Source: Pseudobdellovibrionaceae bacterium | Lineage (GTDB): Bacteria > Bdellovibrionota > Bdellovibrionia > Bdellovibrionales > Bdellovibrionaceae | Direction of reading: 5' to 3' | DNA: 64,000 nt | Assembly: GCA_039810425.1 (NCBI GenBank) | Contig: JBDHWW010000008.1 | Location: 1-64,000, forward strand | Shown: in pieces, positions 35,829 through 45,129 of the stretch | Numbering within the stretch: position 1 is the first letter of the stretch | How the letters are laid out: each line of letters starts with the position of its first letter | Translations under genes and position numbers: made by a program | Notes under the pieces: generated by a model | The model's input: only the letters and a program-made list of their open reading frames with translations | What the model was told of the DNA's origin: nothing | Database searches by the model: none

Positions 35829-37202
35829 TTAACCTTTTGCCCCCTGAGCCATCGCCTGGACAGAGCCCATTTGCTGGTTCAGCTGAGACATTTTTGATTC
35901 TAAATCAGAAAATTTCCTTCTGAGACTTTCTTCCTTTTGCACCAACTGGCGTTCTTTGTTGTCGATGCGTTTGTTGATCTGATCAATCTTGTCTTGCATC
36001 CCTTTTTTCCGATTCCCGATAGGACCAAATTGTGAATTCACCATGTTGTTCACGGCATTCTTTACATTGACCACGAATCCAGTTTTAAAACCGTCTCCAC
36101 GGAAGAACTCGGCAACGCCTTGGGGGTTTGATTGCAGAACCTTATTGAACTTATCCTGTTTGAAATCCAAGGTGCCATTACGGTTAAACTCGATGCCCAG
36201 TTCGTTAATGAGCTTGATCGGACTTTCATTTGTAAACATCGGATTCATGATAACGCTACGGAGAGAGCTCTCTACCGTGCGTAACAGACCGTCGCCGCCG
36301 AGCGGGCCCATGGTCGGCGTCTTACTGCCATTTTGAGCTGTGAGCTTGTGTTGCTGCTGAATAAAGCCAAGAACAGAATTATAGGCGTCAACGAAGCTCT
36401 TGATCTTGCCGCTAATGACTTCGTAGTTTTCTTTGACATTGATACGAACCTGCTTGCCCGGCGCCGCCTGTTTCAAGTCCAGAGTCACACCCGGGAAAAG
36501 ATCGGCCACTTTATTCTCAGGCAATTCAATTTCAAAGCCATCGACTTTGATTTTCGCATTTTTTGCCGGGCGAGATTCATCGAAGTACATGTCCTGATCC
36601 CCGTCGAGCATATAGATCTTCGGGAACGCGATTTGTTTATCACTCCCCGTCGCCAAACCCGCAACAAGCAGGCGATAGGGATTTTCAGGGTCTTTACGGT
36701 CTTCAATGACCGAAGCGCGCAAGCCAGCATTCGCTGCATTGATTTGATCGGCAACACCCGTGAGGGTTGAGTTTTCACCGTTGATATAAACTTCTTTGGT
36801 GCCGTCGGGAGTTTCGAATTTGATATAGCCGACACCCATCTGAGCTTTGTCTTTATCAGGAAATCCGTTGGAAATCGCCGAAGGCTTTTCTGCCAGTTGC
36901 AGGACTTCCAAACTGTAATCGCCTGGAACCGCGAAGTTTGGATCCAAAGATCCGTCAGCGATATTTGGATCTCCGCTCGTAAGTTTTTTGTCAGAGAAAC
37001 CTTTGGTGTTCGTCAACTCACCGAGGTTTTTAACGATGTCGTTCACTTTGGACTCGAGGTCGGTGACGAGTTTTAACTTGTCCTCGTTTTTGGCTTTCTG
37101 TGACTCCATGTTCTTCACGGGAATACGCTCAGCGTCCATCAACTGATCGACGATATTCGGCGGTAATCCTGAGGCCATTCCGGAGATACGAATGCCAGCC
37201 AC
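35829..37202 (-). CDS. fliD: Flagellar filament cap protein FliD
   Basis: SGMASGL..IVDQLMDAER, GVTLDL, FVDAYN, KFSDLE. Confidence 0.95.
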   Translation of the reverse strand: MAGIRISGMASGLPPNIVDQLMDAERIPVKNMESQKAKNEDKLKLVTDLESKVNDIVKNLGELTNTKGFSDKKLTSGDPNIADGSLDPNFAVPGDYSLEVLQLAEKPSAISNGFPDKDKAQMGVGYIKFETPDGTKEVYINGENSTLTGVADQINAANAGLRASVIEDRKDPENPYRLLVAGLATGSDKQIAFPKIYMLDGDQDMYFDESRPAKNAKIKVDGFEIELPENKVADLFPGVTLDLKQAAPGKQVRINVKENYEVISGKIKSFVDAYNSVLGFIQQQHKLTAQNGSKTPTMGPLGGDGLLRTVESSLRSVIMNPMFTNESPIKLINELGIEFNRNGTLDFKQDKFNKVLQSNPQGVAEFFRGDGFKTGFVVNVKNAVNNMVNSQFGPIGNRKKGMQDKIDQINKRIDNKERQLVQKEESLRRKFSDLESKMSQLNQQMGSVQAMAQGAKG

Positions 37203-38646: not shown

Positions 38647-39030
38647 TTAAGCGGACTTCTTAAGGAGTTGGCCTTTTGCGCCTGGCTCATTGCCGGCGGG
38701 AAGAGTCCATAAATCAAGTTCAGGAATACGACGGATCACTGTGCCGTTTGTATCTTTGATGAGAACAAACTTTTTATTTTCGATAAGAAACAGTTCTACT
38801 AACCAACCGTGCTCTTTGATGGCTGAAAAATTTCGGAGTTGTTCGAGGGCTTTTTGGATTTGTTCATCGGTCATCGGCTCACGATGTTGCTGATTACCGG
38901 CGCCCGCCTGCTGTCCATTGGCATCGCGGTCCGCTGCCGAATCGGATTTAATCGCTCTCTCGGTTTTCGAGGCGCCCCGAATCGGATTCGTTGGTAGCAT
39001 GTTTCCTAATAGGCCTTTGATATTCATCAA
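38647..39030 (-). CDS. flaG: FlaG-like flagellar protein
   Basis: VLIKDTNGTVIRRIP motif; between flagellin and fliD. Confidence 0.65.
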   Translation of the reverse strand: MMNIKGLLGNMLPTNPIRGASKTERAIKSDSAADRDANGQQAGAGNQQHREPMTDEQIQKALEQLRNFSAIKEHGWLVELFLIENKKFVLIKDTNGTVIRRIPELDLWTLPAGNEPGAKGQLLKKSA

Positions 39031-39035
39031 CCTAC

Positions 39036-39062
39036 TTATCGGCTTTGACCCGAGATTGATTA
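39036..39062 (-). promoter_or_regulatory. Putative sigma28 promoter of flaG
   Basis: TAAT-N15-GCCGATAA (consensus -10). Confidence 0.65.
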
Positions 39063-39193
39063 AATTTCGAGCATAAATCCGGACCTAAGTACCCAGGAGA
39101 GCCTAGACGACTCCCCTGGTAGGTTGGTACTAGGAGGACAATGGAGAACATCCTCCCAGAACTTTTTAAATCTTTTTAAAATTCTTTTAAATA

Positions 39194-40027
39194 TTAACCC
39201 AAGAGTTTCAAAGCAAGCTGCGGTGTCGAGTTAGCTTGACCAAGAACACTTGTATTCGCGTTCAAGAGAATCGTATTTCTAGTCATCTCTGAAGTTGCTG
39301 CCGCTACATCTGTGTCACGGATACGAGAGTTTGCTGCCGAGATATTTTCGTACATGACACCCAAGTTGTCAGAAGTGGATTGCAAACGATTTTGGATCGC
39401 ACCTAGACTTGCGCGGTAGCCATTCACTTTGAATTGTGCATCATCCAGTTTTGAAAGAGCGGACTGCGCACCTTCTTTGGAAGTGAAATCGAGGCCTTCT
39501 ACGCCCAACTCATCAATTGTCGCGTTGGTCATCGCAGAATCATACGTGATACGATCTTCTGATTCATTATTGTTGATACCGACTTGGAAATCGAATGCGT
39601 TGCCAGAACCATTCAGAAGCTGTGTATTTCCGAAACGAGTTGTTTGAGAGATTCGTTGCATTTCCGCTTTAAGTTGTTGCACCTCTTTGTCAGTGAAACC
39701 GCGTTCACGGTCACCTACGGTGTCGGAAGCGGCCTGGATGCCCAACTCACGAATACGAGTCAAAATGTTGCTCACTTCGTTCAACCCGCCTTCTGCAGTT
39801 TGCACCATAGAGATACCATCGTTAGCATTACGTTGAGCCTGAACCATACTACGGCCTTGAGATTTTAAATTTTCACTGATTGCCAAGCCTGCAGCGTCGT
39901 CTGCTGACTTAGTGATACGAGAACCTGAAGCCAATTGAGCCATGCTCTTTTGGATTTCGCGCTGGCCATTAGCCATTGTTCGCTGCGCGTTAATTGCTGC
40001 TACGTTCGTCGAAATTCTGATTCCCAT
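39194..40027 (-). CDS. fliC: Flagellin A (277 aa)
   Basis: LASGSRITKSADDAAGLAIS, QNRL, SRIRDTDVA. Confidence 0.97.
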   Translation of the reverse strand: MGIRISTNVAAINAQRTMANGQREIQKSMAQLASGSRITKSADDAAGLAISENLKSQGRSMVQAQRNANDGISMVQTAEGGLNEVSNILTRIRELGIQAASDTVGDRERGFTDKEVQQLKAEMQRISQTTRFGNTQLLNGSGNAFDFQVGINNNESEDRITYDSAMTNATIDELGVEGLDFTSKEGAQSALSKLDDAQFKVNGYRASLGAIQNRLQSTSDNLGVMYENISAANSRIRDTDVAAATSEMTRNTILLNANTSVLGQANSTPQLALKLLG

Positions 40028-40198
40028 GTGGGACCTCCATTTTTTTGGCGGTCTTATACCTACTTAGACCGCCTGTTTGTACACGTTGGTGACTTCACTT
40101 CTTCCTCTAGAGCCTGCTAGCGATGAACTCTCGGCAGTCACTCCTTAAGTCCCTCTCAGCCCGTCCAGGTCGAGGTGTCGTCGTTGCTGTTGACATAC

Positions 40199-40225
40199 CT
40201 TTCGGCGAGGTCGTGGAAGTCTTTA
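40199..40225 (-). promoter_or_regulatory. Putative sigma28 promoter of flagellin A (leader ~165 nt)
   Basis: TAAA-N15-GCCGAAAG. Confidence 0.75.
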
Positions 40226-40439
40226 GTCGCGTCCGGCAGAACTGGACCATCGTCGCGCGCGAACTAGACTAAGGTTTTGCTTTTCTGGACTTTTTGCGCG
40301 GATTTCCCGGCTCTAGGTCGTGGAAATTTCCACGCCCGACCACAGTCTCGTCGGGCCGGTGCTGGACTATATACTAAGAGATCTTAGTCTTGGCTGATGA
40401 AAGGCTTGGTCTGGCCTGGAAGAAGCTGGTAAAACTCTA

Positions 40440-40895
40440 ATGGTGAAAACAAAAACAGCTGTCCTTATACTTACACTGATCATCACCGCATGCGCCTCTT
40501 CAGAAAGTGCGCAGAACGATCCTACGACAGGTGAAACAATGGCAAAGCTAAAATCCCGCCCGTTGGGCGTGTCCGTGATTGAGTTGCCTAACACCAATGC
40601 TATTTCCATTAAATTGAAATTTGACTGTCAGGATGAAAATTACAAAATCCGTATGCTTAAGTACAAGATCCGCGCGACTGAGAATGACAAAGAGATCCAG
40701 ACCGATGGCCTGCAAAAAAGCTGGCTCGATAAAAACATAACCATCGTGAATCTCAAGTACCCTAAAACCCGCCATATCAAGTTTAAGAGCATTGAGATCT
40801 CGGCCCACTCTTGGGTGCGCTCATTCCCCGATTCGCAGCTTAGCAGCCCCATTGGCCTGACTCTGCAGCAATGCAAGGACTTAGCGCCGTATTAG
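40440..40895 (+). CDS. Hypothetical lipoprotein
   Basis: Lipobox ITAC. Confidence 0.55.
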   Translation: MVKTKTAVLILTLIITACASSESAQNDPTTGETMAKLKSRPLGVSVIELPNTNAISIKLKFDCQDENYKIRMLKYKIRATENDKEIQTDGLQKSWLDKNITIVNLKYPKTRHIKFKSIEISAHSWVRSFPDSQLSSPIGLTLQQCKDLAPY

Positions 40896-40995
40896 TTGTC
40901 CTCTCAAAGGTCGCAAGAACCTTTTTTGCGTTTACTCGATCGTAGCTGCCGCGGCCATGGGCAGCAACTACCACTCACCGTATATTGTGTTTGCT

Positions 40996-41499
40996 CTAGC
41001 TATTTTCAGATTTCTCGCGGCGATCGCTTCGGGCTCTATAGAAAGCTTTGGTTGCAACGTAAATATTCTTGTCTATGGTTGAGACGATAGCACCCGACTC
41101 ATCAAACCAACTGACGGATTTTGCAAACTCATACTTGCCTTCAGAAGCAGTCACGCGTTTGATTTGCTCGACCTCGTCTTCGGTATAGATAAATTCAGCT
41201 TTGAGCTTTCCTTTGCCGGGCTTTTTAAACTGAATCGATGCCGACTTATCCCAAACGACGTAGCCATCGCCAAGAATATTAATCAGCATCACCATGTACA
41301 TTGGATCCGTGGCAGAAAATTGGCTGCCACCGAAAATCGTGCCAACATAATTGCGCGTCCAAATATTCAGTGACAAGCGCACAACTACCCTCATCCAATC
41401 ACCCGCGATAAACAGCACCTTACCACCGGTTCCGAAGAACATTGGATATAGATTAATACCATATCTGAAAAATCGCGTTTTTAAAGATTCAGGAGTCAT
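40996..41499 (-). CDS. DUF4442 / hot-dog thioesterase-like protein
   Basis: RNYVGTIFGGS, DPMY, VWDKSASIQFKKPG motifs. Confidence 0.85.
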   Translation of the reverse strand: MTPESLKTRFFRYGINLYPMFFGTGGKVLFIAGDWMRVVVRLSLNIWTRNYVGTIFGGSQFSATDPMYMVMLINILGDGYVVWDKSASIQFKKPGKGKLKAEFIYTEDEVEQIKRVTASEGKYEFAKSVSWFDESGAIVSTIDKNIYVATKAFYRARSDRREKSENS

Positions 41500-41509
41500 G
41501 CTTTTCCTT

Positions 41510-42523
41510 CTAATGCCAAACCAAAGGATCAGACCAAAGCGCATCAACGAGACTCACTTCCGCCGGCTGGTAGGATCTCATGCCCAATGCTTTCATAAAG
41601 CCGAACACCAACGCAAGGTTTGTCACCTCGGTCGCCGCATAGGGGTCATTAATCTGAACATCCGTCATATTCGCACGAATCTCGAGAGCCGCCTGAATCG
41701 TTTCTTGTGTCATCGCACTGGCGGCAATAATTTGCCGAGGAAGCGACTTTGCCAAAACACCGCCGATACCAACAACCACTGTTTCGGGATTTGCGAATTT
41801 TCTTTTGATGTTAGCCGGCACGGTTGCTGTTGCTTCTACTTCCGCAAGAGCTACTGAAGGCTTCACGTTTTTTTTCTTTAATGGGTTGGGAGAAGTGACT
41901 TTGTCCGGATTCATTTTCTGAACTTTAGCAATGACCTGATTTTTAAAACTCACCGACGCGAGATTGCCGTAATATACCGTCGGCTTGAGTGCTTCATCCA
42001 CGCTTGTCATTTGCATGCTGCCGCCGCCGATATCCCAAACCACCAGATCCCCAATAGGGACTTTGACTTTTTCGCGAGCCACTTGAAAGCCTAAGAAGGC
42101 CTCTTCGCTTTGCGAGATCACCTTTAAGGGAATGGACAGTTTTTCACGAATCACTTTTACGAAGCTGTCGGCATTTTTAGCCTGACGAAAAGCCGCCGTC
42201 GCGATGCCTGTGAACCTCTTCGTCCCTTTGGCCTGAGCTTCACTCTTTAATTTTTCGAGCGCGACTAGCCCCTCGGTTTGAACAGACTCTGAAAACTCCC
42301 CAGCCTCGTTCTTTTCAAGCGCGTCTCGGTAATCGACCTTCACTTGATCCTCGAGCACCGTTTGAGTCACATCCTGTGTGCAAGTATTAAACTCAACGAC
42401 CTTCATTTTAGTGGCACCGGATCCCACATCAAAGGCCGCGCGGATCTCGGGTCCACACTTCGGCGTCGTCTGGCAAGAAACCAAAGAAAGCGATATAAGA
42501 AGAAGAAATAAAACATGGTACAT
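41510..42523 (-). CDS. Ppx/GppA (ASKHA) phosphatase-family protein with lipoprotein signal
   Basis: DVGSGATK, ATAAFRQA, VISQSEEA, DIGGGS; lipobox LVSC. Confidence 0.85.
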   Translation of the reverse strand: MYHVLFLLLISLSLVSCQTTPKCGPEIRAAFDVGSGATKMKVVEFNTCTQDVTQTVLEDQVKVDYRDALEKNEAGEFSESVQTEGLVALEKLKSEAQAKGTKRFTGIATAAFRQAKNADSFVKVIREKLSIPLKVISQSEEAFLGFQVAREKVKVPIGDLVVWDIGGGSMQMTSVDEALKPTVYYGNLASVSFKNQVIAKVQKMNPDKVTSPNPLKKKNVKPSVALAEVEATATVPANIKRKFANPETVVVGIGGVLAKSLPRQIIAASAMTQETIQAALEIRANMTDVQINDPYAATEVTNLALVFGFMKALGMRSYQPAEVSLVDALWSDPLVWH

Positions 42524-42620
42524 AGATCGTCCTTGAAAGATTTCCTCCTATTACAAGCCGTATAGAACGAAACTTCAAGAAACCATCGCGCTGCATCCGA
42601 AAAAGGTACGGCGTACCCTC

Positions 42621-42656
42621 AAAAAAAAAACCCCGAAAGGCTTGCGCCTCCCGGGG
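42621..42656 (-). terminator. Intrinsic terminator ~230 nt downstream of flagellin B
   Basis: CCCCGGGAGGC-GCAA-GCCUUUCGGGG followed by U10. Confidence 0.85.
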
Positions 42657-42888
42657 TGGGCTTAAGAGTAGTTTTTGTGGGCGACTACTCGTAATTATTT
42701 GAAACTCCGTTCCCGCTGGAGTTCCTTTAAAATTTATCTCAAGAGTTCGCGCAATCAATTAGGATTACACCAACTCCTCAAATATTGTCCGCAATGACAA
42801 AGCAGTTTTGGAAGGCTCGGCAGATCTGTGAGCACTCACTCTCACAGATCCACCATTTTGTATCACTGAAGCTTTCAGTGAAATTTTA

Positions 42889-43713
42889 TTATAAGAGCTT
42901 CAATGCGACCGCTGGTGTTTGGTTGGCTTGAGCCAAAACCCCTACCGCCGCTTGTTGCAAGATATTGGCAGACGTCATCTCAGAAGTTTCTTTCGCGACG
43001 TCTGTGTCACGGATACGAGAGTTCGCAGCCGTCAAGTTTTCGTACTGGATGTCCAAGTTGCTTACCGTGGAATCCAAGCGACTTTGTACCGCACCGAAGT
43101 TCGCTCTCAGTGAGCTGACCTTCACGAGGGCATCATCGACGGTTTTCAAAGCAGCGCGCGCATCGGATTTCGTACCTACCTCAAGACCGTCGATACCAAG
43201 CTCTGAGCCTGTAGCATCGGCGCCAAGGTCGTACTTAATAATATTCTCATCACCGGCGAAGGCACCCACTTGGAACTCCATCTTACCGCCAGAGCCATCC
43301 AAGAGCCGTTTATCACCAAACACCGTAGTTTTCGCGATACGGTCCGCCTCTTGAGTCAGTTGGGTTGCTTCAAGATTCAAGAATCCGCGTTCGCGCTCAC
43401 CGATATGGTCAGAAGCCGCTTGGACTCCCAACTCACGCAAACGGATTAAAATATTACTGATCTCATTCAATCCCCCCTCAGACACTTGAATTGCTGAAGT
43501 CGCATTGAACGCATTGTTTCTGGCCTGAGCAATACCGCGCACCTGGCCGCGGATATTTTCAGAGATCGCGAGGCCGGCCGCATCATCAGATGCATGCACG
43601 ATACGCGAACCAGAAGCTAAGGCCGCCGTCGCATGTTCCGCACGTTTCTGCTGAACCGACAACACCCTTTGTGCCGATATAGACGCCATGTTGGTCTGAA
43701 TTCTTAAGCCCAT
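42889..43713 (-). CDS. fliC: Flagellin B (274 aa)
   Basis: LASGSRIVHASDDAAGLAIS, SRIRDTDVA. Confidence 0.97.
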   Translation of the reverse strand: MGLRIQTNMASISAQRVLSVQQKRAEHATAALASGSRIVHASDDAAGLAISENIRGQVRGIAQARNNAFNATSAIQVSEGGLNEISNILIRLRELGVQAASDHIGERERGFLNLEATQLTQEADRIAKTTVFGDKRLLDGSGGKMEFQVGAFAGDENIIKYDLGADATGSELGIDGLEVGTKSDARAALKTVDDALVKVSSLRANFGAVQSRLDSTVSNLDIQYENLTAANSRIRDTDVAKETSEMTSANILQQAAVGVLAQANQTPAVALKLL

Positions 43714-43940
43714 TGTATCCTCCTTAGGATGAAGCCAACGCGGTTCCGACCCACCGAAGCTCGCGCTGGAGTTCTAAAAAACTAACTACGTTAAAATGTT
43801 TTTTTAGATTGGAGCGGGCCCGCACTCTCTGACGGGGCGACTGTCCCTTCAGAGAGGCGAGCTATCCGCCTAAGGAGGATTCTGTCGAGTGACTGCTAGA
43901 CAAAGGTCCCGAGGTTTTAGCTCCAACGTGTACGCAATAC

Positions 43941-43967
43941 TTCTCGGCCTTGGTCCAGGAAACTTAA
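43941..43967 (-). promoter_or_regulatory. Putative sigma28 promoter of flagellin B (leader ~220 nt)
   Basis: TTAAGTTT-N11-GCCGAGAA. Confidence 0.75.
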
Positions 43968-44109
43968 GGCCCTTGGTCTAGCTTTTCTTTGGATGCGACG
44001 CGTCTTGTATGTGAAAATATTGAGAATGTGGATTAAAAAAATATTTTAAAAACACCTACTTAGGTCTAGGTCGAACTAGACCTTGCAGCAATTATGTTAC
44101 GGAGTTTGG

Positions 44110-44141
44110 GCGGCGAAGAACGCCATTAGCGTCTTCGCCGC
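44110..44141 (-). terminator. Strong hairpin downstream of flagellin C
   Basis: GCGGCGAAGACGCU-AAU-GGCGUUCUUCGCCGC; no clear U tract. Confidence 0.55.
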
Positions 44142-44173
44142 AAATTCAGTCGCCCCCAAATATATTCATAAAT

Positions 44174-44998
44174 CTAAGCGATTAATCGCAGCAGAACTTC
44201 ATTCGACATATTGGACTGGGCCAATACCGATGCCTGATATTGCTGCAAGATCTGACCACGGCGAACCTCGCTCACCGCTTGCGCGACATCAGTGTCGGCC
44301 ATTCTCGAGTGCGCGGCTTCGATGTTCTCGATGCCCACCGCGAGATTGTTGGCGGCGCTGTCCATACGTGATTGGACGGCTCCGTATTTGGCGCGTGCCT
44401 CGGCCACCTTCATCATCGCTTCATCGATGTCCTTCAGGTTACTGCGGGCATCGCTCTTGGATTCGATATCGCCGCCAGCCACGCCCAGTGAAGAGCCCGT
44501 GGTGTCGGTGTCCGAAGTGTACTTAATGATGCTGTCGCTGCCACCCGAAGTTCCGACTTGGAATTCGTAGTCTTTCGATCTTCCATTCAGCAATGAGGTG
44601 GAACCATAAGTGGTCGTCTTTGCAATACGATCCAACTCTTGCGACAGTTGAGTGTATTCAAAGTTAAGGTATTCGCGCTCTTTATCAGAGTACGTATCAC
44701 TCGCTGCCTGAACCGCTAGCTCGCGCATACGGATCAGAATATTATTCTGCTCGTTGAGAGCCCCCTCAGCGACTTGAATAAAACTCGTGGCATTGTCGGC
44801 ATTGTTCAATGCCGCCCTTTGGCCTCGCATTTGACCTTTGAGTTGCTCTGCGATTGCAGCGCCAGCGGCGTCGGAGCCGGGCGTATTGAAGCGGGTTCCG
44901 GAAGCCAAATCCTTCATAGCCTTTTCAGTAGACCGTTGGGTCGAGCCCAGGTATCTCTGCGCCATGAGAGATGCCGAAACAGGAGAAATACGTAACAT
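44174..44998 (-). CDS. fliC: Flagellin C (274 aa, more divergent)
   Basis: GGAGGT RBS before MLRIS; LASG..DAAG, RMRELAVQAASD, SRMADTDVA. Confidence 0.95.
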   Translation of the reverse strand: MLRISPVSASLMAQRYLGSTQRSTEKAMKDLASGTRFNTPGSDAAGAAIAEQLKGQMRGQRAALNNADNATSFIQVAEGALNEQNNILIRMRELAVQAASDTYSDKEREYLNFEYTQLSQELDRIAKTTTYGSTSLLNGRSKDYEFQVGTSGGSDSIIKYTSDTDTTGSSLGVAGGDIESKSDARSNLKDIDEAMMKVAEARAKYGAVQSRMDSAANNLAVGIENIEAAHSRMADTDVAQAVSEVRRGQILQQYQASVLAQSNMSNEVLLRLIA

Positions 44999-45102
44999 TG
45001 AAGCCACCTCCCCTTCCCCGAGTGCCTCGCCCCGAGACATTATGGAAGGAAAAAAGCGCCCACATTTAAACTCTTAAGACCTTTGTCTAGCAGTCACAAT
45101 TC

Positions 45103-45129
45103 TTTTCGGCGCATTGCGTTAAAACTTTA
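45103..45129 (-). promoter_or_regulatory. Putative sigma28 promoter of flagellin C (leader ~100 nt)
   Basis: TAAAGTTT-N11-GCCGAAAA, near-perfect consensus. Confidence 0.85.

What the first reader, a model, noticed from the sequence alone, without database searches (positions are those of the whole stretch)
39044..45129. Candidate mRNA-mRNA pairing network linking the UTRs of three flagellin transcripts
Seen: each flagellin has its own sigma28-like promoter and a 100-220 nt leader. At least six inter-gene complementary blocks lie in their UTRs, and all involve flagellin B: C5'/B5' (20 nt), C5'/B3' (9+8), C3'/B5' (10), A5'/B5' (11 and 10), A3'/B-SD (7+6). They are antisense rather than same-strand matches, so gene duplication does not explain them. 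Two start at predicted transcript 5' ends. Established: multi-flagellin filaments in Bdellovibrio are spatially ordered, and post-transcriptional flagellin control known to me uses proteins (CsrA/FliW, FlbT/FlaF) or dedicated sRNAs. Inference: the flagellin mRNAs act directly as riboregulators or sponges of each other to set order or stoichiometry. I do not know of a described system like this, but could not search the literature.
Basis: partly seen in the sequence, partly recalled or inferred. Interest (0 to 1): 0.88.

Follow-up and report, generated by a model that had tools for sequence, protein, structure and literature searches.

The report
Flagellin mRNA leaders that pair together
Three neighbouring flagellin genes of a Bdellovibrio-like predator carry untranslated RNA stretches that fit one another like antisense partners, and matching mutations keep that fit across dozens of related genomes, which points to RNA-to-RNA cross-control of how the flagellar filament is built.

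Summary
All six block sets exist. Complementary blocks of 10 nt or more between the UTRs number 6, against 0.30 in shuffles (0 of 400 reach it).

Three interactions are under selection:
- The predicted 5' end of fla3 (C) mRNA pairs with a hairpin in the fla2 (B) leader. Within-locus score is 32.6 against 22.2 across loci in 47 non-redundant loci; 0 of 20000 permutations reach it. Same-sense and reversed controls are near flat.
- The predicted 5' end of fla2 mRNA pairs with the fla1 (A) leader (24.6 vs 19.0; 0 of 20000).
- A conserved two-hairpin module in the fla2 3' UTR pairs with the fla3 leader and with fla2's own start codon.

G:U exceeds A:C inside the duplexes, which favours RNA over DNA. 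Two blocks, C3'/B5' and A3'/B-SD, are not conserved.

It is not without precedent. Vibrio FlaX and Listeria hly-prsA2 work alike, and RNAs named APsRNA3 and APsRNA4 flank the corresponding flagellin gene in B. bacteriovorus. Earlier notes of this scan report the same theme in other genomes.

No expression data exist for this organism, and the regulatory outcome is inferred. I rate it a new variant of a known kind.

The parts
45103..45129 (-). sigma28-like promoter of fla3 (TAAAGTTT ... GCCGAAAA)
   Evidence: pattern scan; sequence; conserved in 6 same-genus relatives
45078..45097 (-). fla3 5'-terminal seed GTGACTGCTAGACAAAGGTC; pairs with the fla2 hub hairpin
   Evidence: duplex kept with changed sequence in 17 of 18 genomes and in 47 of 52 loci at score 25 or more
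45057..45064 (-). fla3 leader TGTGGGCG, complementary to the loop of the fla2 3'-UTR module
   Evidence: 65C; flanks co-vary, e.g. GTTTTGTGGGCG with CGCCCACAAAAC
45044..45055 (-). fla3 anti-SD (U6-CCUUCC), predicted to pair with the SD at 45007-45017
   Evidence: MFE; unpaired probability of the SD 0.02, call 83C; CCTTCC/GGAAGG co-varies within the genus, read
44174..44998 (-). fla3 (flagellin C) coding sequence
   Evidence: Pfam; tblastn
44064..44083 (-). hairpin GGTCTAG-N-CTAGACC downstream of fla3, followed by a T-rich tract; not a canonical terminator
   Evidence: co-varies GGTCYAG/CTRGACC; no terminator was called here
43941..43967 (-). sigma28-like promoter of fla2 (TTAAGTTT ... GCCGAGAA)
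   Evidence: region about 80% conserved across the order
43923..43933 (-). fla2 5'-terminal seed GTACACGTTGG; pairs with the fla1 leader
   Evidence: three perfectly matched variants within the genus
43881..43908 (-). fla2 hub: the 20-nt block 43889-43908 folds as a hairpin (arms 43899-43904 and 43881-43886) with GCAGTCAC in the loop
   Evidence: the same hairpin in 36 of 37 loci, call 83B; loop unpaired probability 0.70, call 83C
43869..43880 (-). fla2 anti-SD ATCCTCCTTAGG, 12-nt complement of fla2's own SD (43717-43728)
   Evidence: B5/B5 12 nt; long-range helix in the MFE; unpaired probabilities 0.01 and 0.07, call 83C
42889..43713 (-). fla2 (flagellin B) coding sequence; start region TGGGCTTAAGA at 43702-43712 is complementary to fla2's own 3'-UTR linker
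   Evidence: codons 2-4 fixed at synonymous sites, call 65D
42620..42701 (-). fla2 3'-UTR module: hairpin with loop CGCCCACA (42676-42683), linker TCTTAAGCCCA (42657-42667), terminator 42630-42657 and a U-run
   Evidence: the position corresponds to APsRNA4 of HD100 (PMC3627812)
40199..40225 (-). sigma28-like promoter of fla1 (TAAAGACT ... GCCGAAAG)
   Evidence: nearly the same promoter has a mapped start site at Bd0606 in HD100
40134..40143 (-). fla1 leader GAGTGACTGC, complementary to the fla2 hub loop
   Evidence: unpaired probability 0.67, call 83C
40079..40089 (-). fla1 leader CCAACGTGTAC, partner of the fla2 5' end
   Evidence: 65B
39194..40027 (-). fla1 (flagellin A) coding sequence
44147..44156 (-). 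C3' block GGGGCGACTG (partner 43834-43843): present but not conserved, probably chance
   Evidence: lies in a stretch that none of the 6 same-genus relatives aligns

Best explanation
The three sigma28-driven flagellin transcripts form a base-pairing network in trans, with fla2 as the hub.

1. The first 18-20 nt of fla3 mRNA are complementary to a hairpin in the fla2 leader. The loop (GCAGUCAC) offers a toehold, and the 5' arm of the hairpin is the rest of the target, so pairing would open that hairpin. The hairpin sits directly upstream of the 12-nt anti-SD that is predicted to lock fla2's ribosome-binding site.
2. The first 11-13 nt of fla2 mRNA are complementary to an exposed site about 60 nt upstream of the fla1 start codon. 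fla1 also carries a 10-nt match to the fla2 hub loop.
3. The fla2 3' UTR ends in a conserved two-hairpin, sRNA-like module. Its loop matches the fla3 leader next to fla3's anti-SD, and its linker matches fla2's own start codon.

Inferred, not shown. These duplexes form between whole mRNAs or between stable leader and 3'-UTR fragments of them. They couple the stability and translation of the three flagellins to one another, either by shielding 5' ends from RNase E-type decay or by making RNase III substrates, and by shifting the balance between anti-SD and SD. This would tune filament composition on top of sigma28 and CsrA-FliW control. The long duplexes fit a genome in which I found neither Hfq nor ProQ.
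For: Statistics in this window:
- 6 complementary blocks of 10 nt or more against 0.30 in shuffles; 0 of 400 reach it.
- Cofold gain for the fla3 and fla2 leaders is -33.1 kcal/mol (z -7.3; 0 of 60 shuffles reach it). For the fla2 3' tail with the fla3 leader it is -21.9 (z -4.6; 0 of 60).

Co-evolution:
- The fla3/fla2 duplex persists with different sequences. Examples: GACCTTTGTCTAGCAGTCAC, GGAACTCATCAACAGTC, CTTGGACTGACTAGCA, GATCTCGTCTAACAGTCAA, AAACATATCAGCCGTCA.
- Within-locus score is 32.6 against 22.2 (sd 4.1) across loci in 47 non-redundant loci. 0 of 20000 permutations reach it. The cognate partner is the best of its row in 28 of 47.
- Controls: same-sense 22.1 vs 21.0; reversed-only 20.1 vs 20.0.
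- fla2 5' end with the fla1 leader: 26 of 32 loci score 20 or more. In 28 non-redundant loci the score is 24.6 vs 19.0, with 0 of 20000 permutations reaching it. Within the genus there are three perfectly matched variants.
- 3'-UTR loop with the fla3 leader: 21.0 vs 17.8; 0 of 20000.

RNA rather than DNA:
- G:U against A:C inside the duplexes is 22:6 with one genome per genus, against a G:U share of 0.57 in non-cognate pairs (p 0.015). It is 63:35 in the 47 loci, against 0.52 (p 0.009).
- The seeds begin at the predicted +1. The spacing is calibrated on a mapped start site.
- The hub hairpin is present in 36 of 37 loci.
- fla2 codons 2-4 are GGC in 75 of 76, TTA in 69 of 76 and AGA in 63 of 76, against background shares of 0.20, 0.23 and 0.18.
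- In the 3'-UTR module all 11 predicted pairs show compensating changes, and the unpaired stretches GCCCACA and TTAAGCCC are near-invariant.

Expression in a relative. In B. bacteriovorus HD100, attack-phase RNAs APsRNA3 (128 nt, FliA promoter) and APsRNA4 (98 nt) lie 276-149 nt upstream and 30-127 nt downstream of flagellin gene Bd0604 (PMC3627812 Table 2 and supplement rows).

Genome context. RNase III and an RNase E/G protein are present. Hfq, ProQ and RNase J were not found in a genome 99.9% complete.
Against: - No transcript data exist for this organism. The public runs are contigs and show neither ends nor chimeras.
- One RNA-library contig of a relative spans the fla2 promoter (43843-44016). 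That would fit read-through from fla3, meaning pairing in cis, or DNA in the library.
- In this window the fla2/fla1 pairing is only 11+10 nt, and its cofold gain is no better than shuffles (-15.4; z -1.0; 9 of 60 shuffles reach it).
- The core GCAGTCAC/GTGACTGC hardly varies, so it could also be a protein-binding motif.
- The same-sense control shows a small within-locus excess (307 of 20000).
- The pairing is missing in some genomes. G014 lacks the fla3/fla2 duplex. G007 and G019 lack the fla2/fla1 duplex. 5 of 52 loci score under 25.
- Relatives are not independent, and the two genome sets overlap, so the p-values are too optimistic.
- RNAalifold found no consensus pairs for the hub hairpin, because the register differs among sequences.
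- The direction of regulation is unknown.
Confidence: 0.68

Rival explanations
1. The same pairings are real, but the acting molecules are small stable RNAs cut or terminated from the flagellin transcripts: a 5'-leader fragment and a 3'-UTR sRNA of fla2. This would be a FlaX-type sRNA network, not mRNA-mRNA pairing.
For: In HD100 the regions flanking Bd0604 were scored as separate attack-phase RNAs: APsRNA3, 128 nt with a FliA promoter, and APsRNA4, 98 nt (PMC3627812). The fla2 3' module has the build of an sRNA: a seed in a loop, a single-stranded linker, then a terminator with a U-run. FlaX gives a precedent (PMC11879080).
Against: The fla3 and fla2 seeds are the 5' ends of transcripts that run into the coding sequences. 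I found no terminator-like site inside the fla2 or fla3 leader of this window. The APsRNA calls rest on coverage of intergenic regions and may simply be UTRs. The two readings do not exclude each other.
Confidence: 0.35
2. The fla3/fla2 duplex forms in cis within a read-through fla3-fla2 transcript. It loops out the fla3 cistron as a processing stalk for RNase III, much as happens in rRNA precursors.
For: No canonical terminator was called between fla3 and fla2. A 20-bp perfect helix is a typical RNase III substrate (established knowledge), and RNase III is present. An RNA-library contig of a relative spans the fla2 promoter. A comparable cis case is reported for yabJ-spoVG of S. aureus (bioRxiv 10.64898/2026.09.18.752551; I saw only the search listing).
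Against: fla2 has its own strongly conserved sigma28 promoter upstream of the hub. The fla2/fla1 and 3'-UTR/fla3 pairings cannot be cis. A strong terminator, two further genes and an opposite-strand lipoprotein-like ORF lie between fla2 and fla1. One same-genus relative has about 1.7 kb inserted between fla3 and fla2 and still keeps the pairing.
Confidence: 0.2
3. The complementary blocks act at the DNA level. They would be inverted repeats for a Hin/hix-like inversion switch, or repeated binding sites of a flagellar transcription factor (the CTAGAC-type boxes), with concerted evolution by gene conversion.
For: A 20-31 bp inverted repeat flanks the 1.15-kb fla3 segment. The motif CTAGACNNA[AG]G occurs 24 times in the genome, 5 of them in this locus and in both orientations. 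Direct repeats around the fla2 promoter co-vary (CTAGACTAAGG / CAGGACTAAGG in one relative).
Against: None of the 11 neighbouring ORFs scanned has a recombinase domain. The sequences differ among genera while staying complementary, which a shared protein site would not do. G:U is favoured over A:C on the mRNA strand. The 11-15 nt fla2/fla1 blocks lie 0.7-3.7 kb apart and are too short for recombination. The seeds track the transcription start.
Confidence: 0.04
4. The blocks are chance matches, or by-products of shared hairpins and palindromes in AT-rich or CTAG-rich intergenic DNA.
For: Blocks of 8-10 nt are expected now and then (shuffles reach 10-13 nt). Two of the six claimed blocks are not conserved. 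Among the seven flagellin leaders of this genome only fla2 with fla3 stands out (43.5; all other pairs score 15-29, call 65A).
Against: 0 of 400 shuffles reach the observed counts. 0 of 20000 permutations reach the within-locus scores for any of the three interactions. The reversed-only control is flat.
Confidence: 0.02

Closest known systems
FlaX of Vibrio cholerae, an sRNA from the flaA flagellin 3' UTR (PMC11879080; abstract and passages read)
   Same: An RNA made from one flagellin transcript pairs at several sites in the 5' UTR of another flagellin mRNA and changes filament composition. The authors propose this as a general way for flagellin mRNAs to control one another. The fla2 3'-UTR module here pairs in silico with the fla3 leader.
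   Different: FlaX is cut out by RNase E and needs ProQ; no ProQ was found here. The main pairings here run from a 5' end to a leader, between leaders of sigma28 transcripts, and form a chain fla3 to fla2 to fla1. There is no sequence likeness. The outcome here is untested.
hly-prsA2 mRNA-mRNA pairing of Listeria monocytogenes (PMC8722363; abstract and section headings read)
   Same: A full-length mRNA pairs through a UTR with the 5' end of a functionally linked mRNA and shields it from 5'-dependent decay.
   Different: In Listeria the pairing is 3' UTR to 5' end and the nuclease is RNase J1. No RNase J was found here; RNase E/G would be the candidate. Here the partners are paralogues and the links are several.
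APsRNA3 and APsRNA4 of Bdellovibrio bacteriovorus HD100 (PMC3627812; Table 2 passage and supplement rows read)
   Same: By coordinates they lie in the leader (FliA promoter) and in the 3' UTR of flagellin gene Bd0604 (fliC1). That gene has the length of fla2 and precedes a fla1-length flagellin gene (Bd0606, fliC2). These are the positions of the fla2 hub leader and the fla2 3' module.
   Different: In the passages I read the paper treats them as orphan attack-phase sRNAs and names no targets. I did not hold the HD100 sequence, so the correspondence rests on coordinates, gene lengths and gene order, not on an alignment.
sigma28-dependent UTR-derived sRNAs MotR, FliX, FlgO and UhpU of E. coli (PMC10578931; abstract read)
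   Same: RNAs derived from UTRs of flagellar transcripts under sigma28 control that tune flagellin level and flagellar number.
   Different: They depend on Hfq (paper keywords); no Hfq was found here. MotR and FliX act on coding sequences of ribosomal-protein mRNAs, not on sister flagellin leaders.
icaR 5'-3' UTR pairing of Staphylococcus aureus
   Same: A 3' UTR that is complementary to the translation start region of its own mRNA, like the fla2 linker TCTTAAGCCCA with the fla2 start codon.
   Different: Here the same module also matches another mRNA (fla3). Whether it acts in cis or as a released sRNA is unknown.

Membership tests
FlaX-type flagellin 3'-UTR sRNA | Regulatory RNA lies in the 3' UTR of a flagellin gene, ends at its terminator, and accumulates as a separate species | tested here: inconclusive
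   A conserved module sits at 42620-42701 before the terminator. A 98-nt RNA is reported at the corresponding place in HD100. There are no RNA data for this organism.
FlaX-type flagellin 3'-UTR sRNA | Base-pairs with the 5' UTR of another flagellin mRNA | tested here: met
   In silico only. The loop CGCCCACA matches the fla3 leader and the flanks co-vary. Cofold gain is -21.9 kcal/mol, z -4.6.
FlaX-type flagellin 3'-UTR sRNA | Depends on the chaperone ProQ | tested here: not met
   No PF04352 match in a genome 99.9% complete.
mRNA-mRNA 5'-end protection (hly-prsA2 type) | Pairing covers the extreme 5' end of the target mRNA | tested here: met
   The seeds start at the predicted +1 of fla3 and fla2. 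The spacing is calibrated on a mapped start site. The starts in this organism are predicted, not mapped.
mRNA-mRNA 5'-end protection (hly-prsA2 type) | Protection from the 5' exonuclease RNase J1 | tested here: not met
   No TIGR00649 match. An RNase E/G protein is present.
mRNA-mRNA 5'-end protection (hly-prsA2 type) | The regulator acts as a full-length mRNA | not testable with these tools
   Needs Northern blots or long-read RNA data.
Hfq-dependent sigma28 UTR-derived sRNAs (MotR/FliX type) | sigma28 promoter and origin in a UTR | tested here: met
   sigma28-like promoters lie upstream of all three leaders.
Hfq-dependent sigma28 UTR-derived sRNAs (MotR/FliX type) | Hfq-dependent pairing | tested here: not met
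   No PF17209 match.
Hin/hix-type invertible flagellin switch | Inverted repeats flank a promoter- or gene-bearing segment | tested here: met
   Arms of 20-31 nt at 43889-43919 and 45067-45097.
Hin/hix-type invertible flagellin switch | Both orientations occur, and a recombinase gene is adjacent | tested here: not met
   Genes are co-oriented in 80 of 80 loci. None of the 11 neighbouring ORFs scanned has a recombinase domain.
CsrA-FliW control of flagellin translation (an added layer, not a rival) | csrA and fliW genes present; GGA motif at the SD of the flagellin leader | tested here: met
   CsrA and FliW lie adjacent on contig C10. The fla2 SD reads AUCCUAAGGAGGAU. Binding was not tested.
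icaR-type pairing of an mRNA's own 3' UTR with its start region | 3' UTR complementary to the mRNA's own ribosome-binding or start region | tested here: met
   11 nt here. 10-12 nt in 15 of 16 genomes that have the module, and a gapped 5+5 match in G007. Codons 2-4 are fixed at synonymous sites. In silico only.

The most novel reading that the evidence does not exclude
A chaperone-free daisy chain of messenger RNAs. The 5' end of each flagellin mRNA invades a toehold hairpin or exposed site in the leader of the next flagellin gene on the chromosome (fla3 to fla2 to fla1). The fla2 3' tail feeds back on fla3 and on fla2 itself. The transcripts thus license or limit one another's translation in sequence. 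That RNA hierarchy would write the spatial order of flagellin blocks in the filament. In B. bacteriovorus, FliC1 is followed by FliC2 in the filament (PMC2791853). Their genes, Bd0604 and Bd0606, match fla2 and fla1 in length and order.
Probability: 0.25. Interest if true: 0.88.

Novelty: new variant of a known kind. Interest (0 to 1): 0.77.

Why it matters
How bacteria with several flagellins place each one in the right amount and position along a single filament is an old open question. Transcription (sigma28) and CsrA-FliW explain whether flagellins are made, but not which one and in what order.

A conserved, co-varying set of leader-to-leader and tail-to-leader pairings among the flagellin transcripts would be a direct RNA-level link between the paralogues. 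It gives short, precisely placed seeds that can be mutated and then compensated, so the question becomes testable.

It would also add a natural multi-partner case of mRNA-mRNA, or UTR-fragment, regulation in a lineage in which I found no Hfq and no ProQ. And it would assign targets to two orphan attack-phase RNAs of Bdellovibrio.

Tried and rejected
- **Rfam.** Only a weak NsiR1 match below threshold on the fla2 terminator (23.9 bits against 39). I take it as chance.
- **Public runs.** 22 runs were listed, all kept as contigs. Four were laid and gave fragments only, with no starts, ends or inter-gene joints. One opposite-strand joint inside the fla2 coding sequence in X20 looks like an assembly artefact. 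These data bear on nothing except the weak read-through hint.
- **A partner for the fla1 5' end.** A genome-wide 10-mer complement search gave only scattered hits of 10-14 nt. No candidate emerged.
- **The other four flagellin genes** (contigs C2, C4, C27). All-against-all leader scores are 15-29, at background level. I found no sign that they belong to the network in this genome.
- **CTAGAC boxes as a transcription-factor site that would explain the blocks.** The motif is enriched. It cannot explain complementarity that changes sequence between genera.
- **RNAduplex on whole leaders**. Energies near -100 kcal/mol came from forced long duplexes, so I replaced it with a local complementarity score. 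Its permutation result pointed the same way.
- **RNAalifold on the hub hairpin**. It gave 0 pairs because the stem register differs among sequences. Single-sequence folds were used instead. For the same reason count of structure pairs was not run.
They did not fit, so I dropped this and used the gene coordinates from the paper's supplement.
- **Dropped from counts.** L123 (the upstream gene was mis-assigned and gave a self-match). Three near-duplicate genomes. Loci sharing 30% or more of their 12-mers with another locus.
- **Promoter mis-detection.** The promoter regex picked the wrong site in a few loci (for example L068 and L097). This lowers that count rather than raising it.

Full report
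**What is there**

The stretch 39044-45129 holds three flagellin genes on the minus strand: fla1/A 39194-40027, fla2/B 42889-43713 and fla3/C 44174-44998. Each has Flagellin_N and Flagellin_C domains.

Between fla2 and fla1 lie a Ppx/GppA-like gene, a DUF4442 gene and an opposite-strand ORF with a lipoprotein-like start. FliD lies further downstream.

The genome is 3.54 Mb in 149 contigs, with 49% GC. It has seven flagellin genes in all.

Each of the three genes has a sigma28-like promoter. For the start sites I used the spacing of the one mapped start available to me, Bd0606 of B. bacteriovorus HD100, where +1 is the 8th nt after GCCGAAAG (PMC3627812 supplement row). This gives leaders of about 98 nt (fla3), 221 nt (fla2) and 164 nt (fla1).

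- fla3 5' / fla2 5': 20 nt. This extends to 31 nt at 84% as the top inverted repeat of the region.
- fla1 5' / fla2 5': 11 nt and 10 nt.
- fla3 3' / fla2 5': 10 nt.
- fla3 5' / fla2 3': 9+8 nt.
- I also found an 11-nt match between the fla2 start-codon region and fla2's own 3' UTR, and a 12-nt anti-SD/SD pair inside the fla2 leader.

Against 400 dinucleotide shuffles of the six UTRs, complementary blocks of 10 nt or more number 6, against a mean of 0.30 (0 of 400 reach it). Blocks of 8 nt or more number 14, against 4.87. Same-sense blocks of 8 nt or more number 7. The 20-mer has no other copy in the genome at up to 3 mismatches.

**Comparative evidence**

The six same-genus genomes keep the order fla3-fla2-...-fla1. 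Their alignments show compensating changes.

| Genomes | fla1 leader site | fla2 5' end |
|---|---|---|
| G000, G005, G001 | CCAACGTGTAC | GTACACGTTGG |
| G002, G006 | CCAACGTGTAT | ATACACGTTGG |
| G003, G004 | CCAACACGTTAC | GTAACGTGTTGG |

- One genome changes CA to TG in the fla3 seed and makes the matching change in fla2.
- The other departures are G:U pairs or a one-base bulge.

I then took 20 loci from other genera of the family and order and 80 named loci. The named loci are Bdellovibrio sp. records and MAGs labelled Pseudobdellovibrionaceae, Bdellovibrionaceae or Bdellovibrionales. The two sets overlap in genomes and are not independent.

*fla3 5' end with the fla2 leader.* The duplex is present in 17 of 18 genomes of the first set. 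In the second set 47 of 52 loci score 25 or more (L123 dropped as an artefact). The sequences differ between genera but remain complementary. In 47 non-redundant loci:
- The within-locus complementarity score is 32.6, against 22.2 (sd 4.1) for non-cognate pairs.
- 0 of 20000 permutations reach it.
- The cognate partner is the best of its row in 28 of 47.
- Same-sense control: 22.1 vs 21.0 (307 of 20000 reach it). Reversed-only control: 20.1 vs 20.0.

*fla2 5' end with the fla1 leader.* 26 of 32 loci score 20 or more, with duplexes of up to 22 perfect pairs. In 28 non-redundant loci the score is 24.6 vs 19.0, and 0 of 20000 permutations reach it.

*fla2 3'-UTR loop with the fla3 leader.* The score is 21.0 vs 17.8, and 0 of 20000 permutations reach it. 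The flanks co-vary.

**RNA or DNA?**

Inside the best duplexes I scored G:U and A:C alike, yet G:U outnumbers A:C:
- 22 to 6 with one genome per genus. The G:U share is 0.79, against 0.57 in non-cognate pairs (p 0.015).
- 63 to 35 in the 47 loci. The share is 0.64, against 0.52 (p 0.009).

The seeds sit at the predicted first nucleotides of the fla3 and fla2 transcripts in genome after genome.

All flagellin genes are co-oriented in 80 of 80 loci, so no inverted form of the fla3 segment was seen. None of the 11 neighbouring ORFs scanned has a recombinase domain.

A transcription-factor site would not change sequence between genera while staying complementary to its partner. I therefore put the DNA-level readings at a few percent.

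**Anatomy of the hub**

- In the fla2 leader the target of fla3 folds as a hairpin. GCAGUCAC sits in the loop, and the 5' arm of the stem is the rest of the target. This holds in 36 of 37 loci. The loop's unpaired probability here is 0.70.
- The fla3 5' end thus equals the complement of the loop plus a copy of the 3' arm. That is the layout of a toehold followed by strand invasion.
- Directly 3' of the hairpin lies ATCCTCCTTAGG. The minimum-free-energy fold pairs it with fla2's own SD 150 nt downstream. Unpaired probabilities are 0.01 and 0.07.
- The fla3 leader likewise buries its SD (0.02) under a U6-CCUUCC anti-SD. That pair co-varies within the genus: CCCTCC/GGAGGG and CCTTTC/GAAAGG (read).
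- The fla1 sites are predicted to be open (0.67).

**The fla2 3' module**

The sequence just before the strong terminator at 42630-42657 is an island of conservation. It has three parts: a hairpin with loop CGCCCACA, a single-stranded CTCTTAAGCCCA, and the terminator.

- A regex finds the module downstream of fla2 in 35 of 78 loci. In 13 more only the loop motif is found.
- RNAalifold on 26 sequences gives two hairpins. All 11 predicted pairs show compensating changes, and the two unpaired stretches are near-invariant.
- The linker matches the fla2 start region over 10-12 nt in 15 of 16 genomes that have the module. G007 keeps only a gapped 5+5 match.
- fla2 codons 2-4 are GGC in 75 of 76, TTA in 69 of 76 and AGA in 63 of 76. 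Their background shares among synonymous codons are 0.20, 0.23 and 0.18.

**What is not supported**

- The fla3 3' / fla2 5' 10-mer lies in a stretch that none of the six same-genus relatives aligns.
- The fla1 3' hairpin behind the A3'/B-SD claim changes sequence while the fla2 SD stays fixed.
- The 9-mer of C5'/B3' is not kept within the genus.
- In this window the fla2/fla1 cofold gain (-15.4 kcal/mol) is no better than shuffles (9 of 60 reach it). By contrast fla3/fla2 gives -33.1 and the 3' tail with fla3 gives -21.9, each with 0 of 60 shuffles reaching it.
- The other four flagellin leaders show nothing above background.

**Expression**

No usable RNA data exist for this organism.

In B. 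bacteriovorus HD100 the attack-phase RNAs APsRNA3 (561854-561981, 128 nt, FliA promoter) and APsRNA4 (562984-563081, 98 nt) flank flagellin gene Bd0604 (562130-562954). Bd0606 has a mapped FliA start with a 164-nt leader (PMC3627812, Table 2 passage and supplement rows).

Bd0604 and Bd0606 are fliC1 and fliC2 (PMC2791853). They match fla2 and fla1 in length and order. I did not align the sequences.

So leader and 3'-UTR RNAs at the corresponding places are abundant in a relative. In the passages I read the paper names no targets for them. A library search for the name APsRNA found no later Bdellovibrio paper.

**Mechanism, and how sure**

*Shown in silico:* complementarity, its co-evolution, the strand bias, the placement at 5' ends, and the hairpin and anti-SD layout.

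*Inferred:* the RNAs pair in trans and thereby couple stability and translation of the three flagellins.

- Base-paired 5' ends are known to shield mRNAs from 5'-end-dependent decay (established knowledge; the Listeria case is PMC8722363).
- Here an RNase E/G protein and RNase III are present, and RNase J was not found.
- Hfq and ProQ were not found. That fits the long duplexes.
- CsrA and FliW are present and probably act on the same SD hairpins as a separate layer.
- I cannot tell activation from repression. I also cannot tell whether whole mRNAs or fragments act.
- For fla3/fla2 a cis duplex in a read-through transcript remains possible. No terminator was called between the two genes, and there is the weak contig hint.

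**Comparison and novelty**

The closest described system is V. cholerae FlaX. It is a flagellin 3'-UTR sRNA that pairs at three sites in the flaB leader, and its authors suggest that flagellin mRNAs in general may control one another this way (PMC11879080).

This case differs in four ways:
- The pairing runs from a 5' end to a leader.
- The links form a chain along three genes.
- The target is built as a toehold hairpin.
- There is no known chaperone.

My library searches found no description of such pairing among Bdellovibrio flagellin transcripts. Those searches cover only open-access PMC papers and bioRxiv.

Earlier notes of this scan report the same theme on other genomes. I reached the pairings and the 3' module before reading those notes. 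I took from them only the lead to the APsRNA paper.

**Verdict:** a real, conserved RNA feature and a new variant of a known kind. The function is inferred.

Noticed in passing
window 43941-43985 (minus strand) and the same place in relatives: Two direct CTRGACC-NNRGG boxes surround the fla2 sigma28 promoter, one just upstream of the -35 box and one in the spacer. They are conserved across the order at about 80% identity and partly co-vary with each other (TAAGG in both boxes in one relative, CTAGG in both in another). Possibly an extended promoter or a regulator site.
   Followed up: partly
genome contigs C17, C32, C53, C77, C90, positions about 51-55: The same 27-nt string containing GCTAGACAAAGGACC sits about 50 nt from the end of five contigs. 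This is a repeat that breaks the assembly; its nature is unknown.
   Followed up: no
window 38647-39053: A conserved GCCGATAA box (sigma28 -10-like) lies a few bases before a 127-aa ORF with no Pfam match, directly downstream of fla1. It is followed by a 317-aa ORF with no Pfam match and by fliD (35829-37202).
   Followed up: no
window 44084-44173 and locus L021: The spacer after fla3 is variable. This genome has a stretch that none of the six same-genus relatives aligns, with a 14-bp GC-rich hairpin (44110-44143) and no U-run. One close relative (G005) has about 1.7 kb inserted between fla3 and fla2 and still keeps the pairing blocks.
   Followed up: partly
window 43834-43850: A second CAGTC(A/G)C motif sits in the loop of a long hairpin in the fla2 leader (GGGACAGTCGCCCC). 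At least two such motifs occur in 45 of 78 fla2 leaders. It may be an alternative docking loop for the GTGACTG seeds of fla3 and fla1.
   Followed up: partly
window 40440-40895 (plus strand): A 151-aa ORF with a lipoprotein-like signal sequence and no Pfam match lies between fla2 and fla1 on the opposite strand.
   Followed up: no
genome contig C10:3126-3953 (minus strand): csrA and fliW lie side by side. Hfq, ProQ and RNase J were not detected in a genome estimated 99.9% complete.
   Followed up: yes
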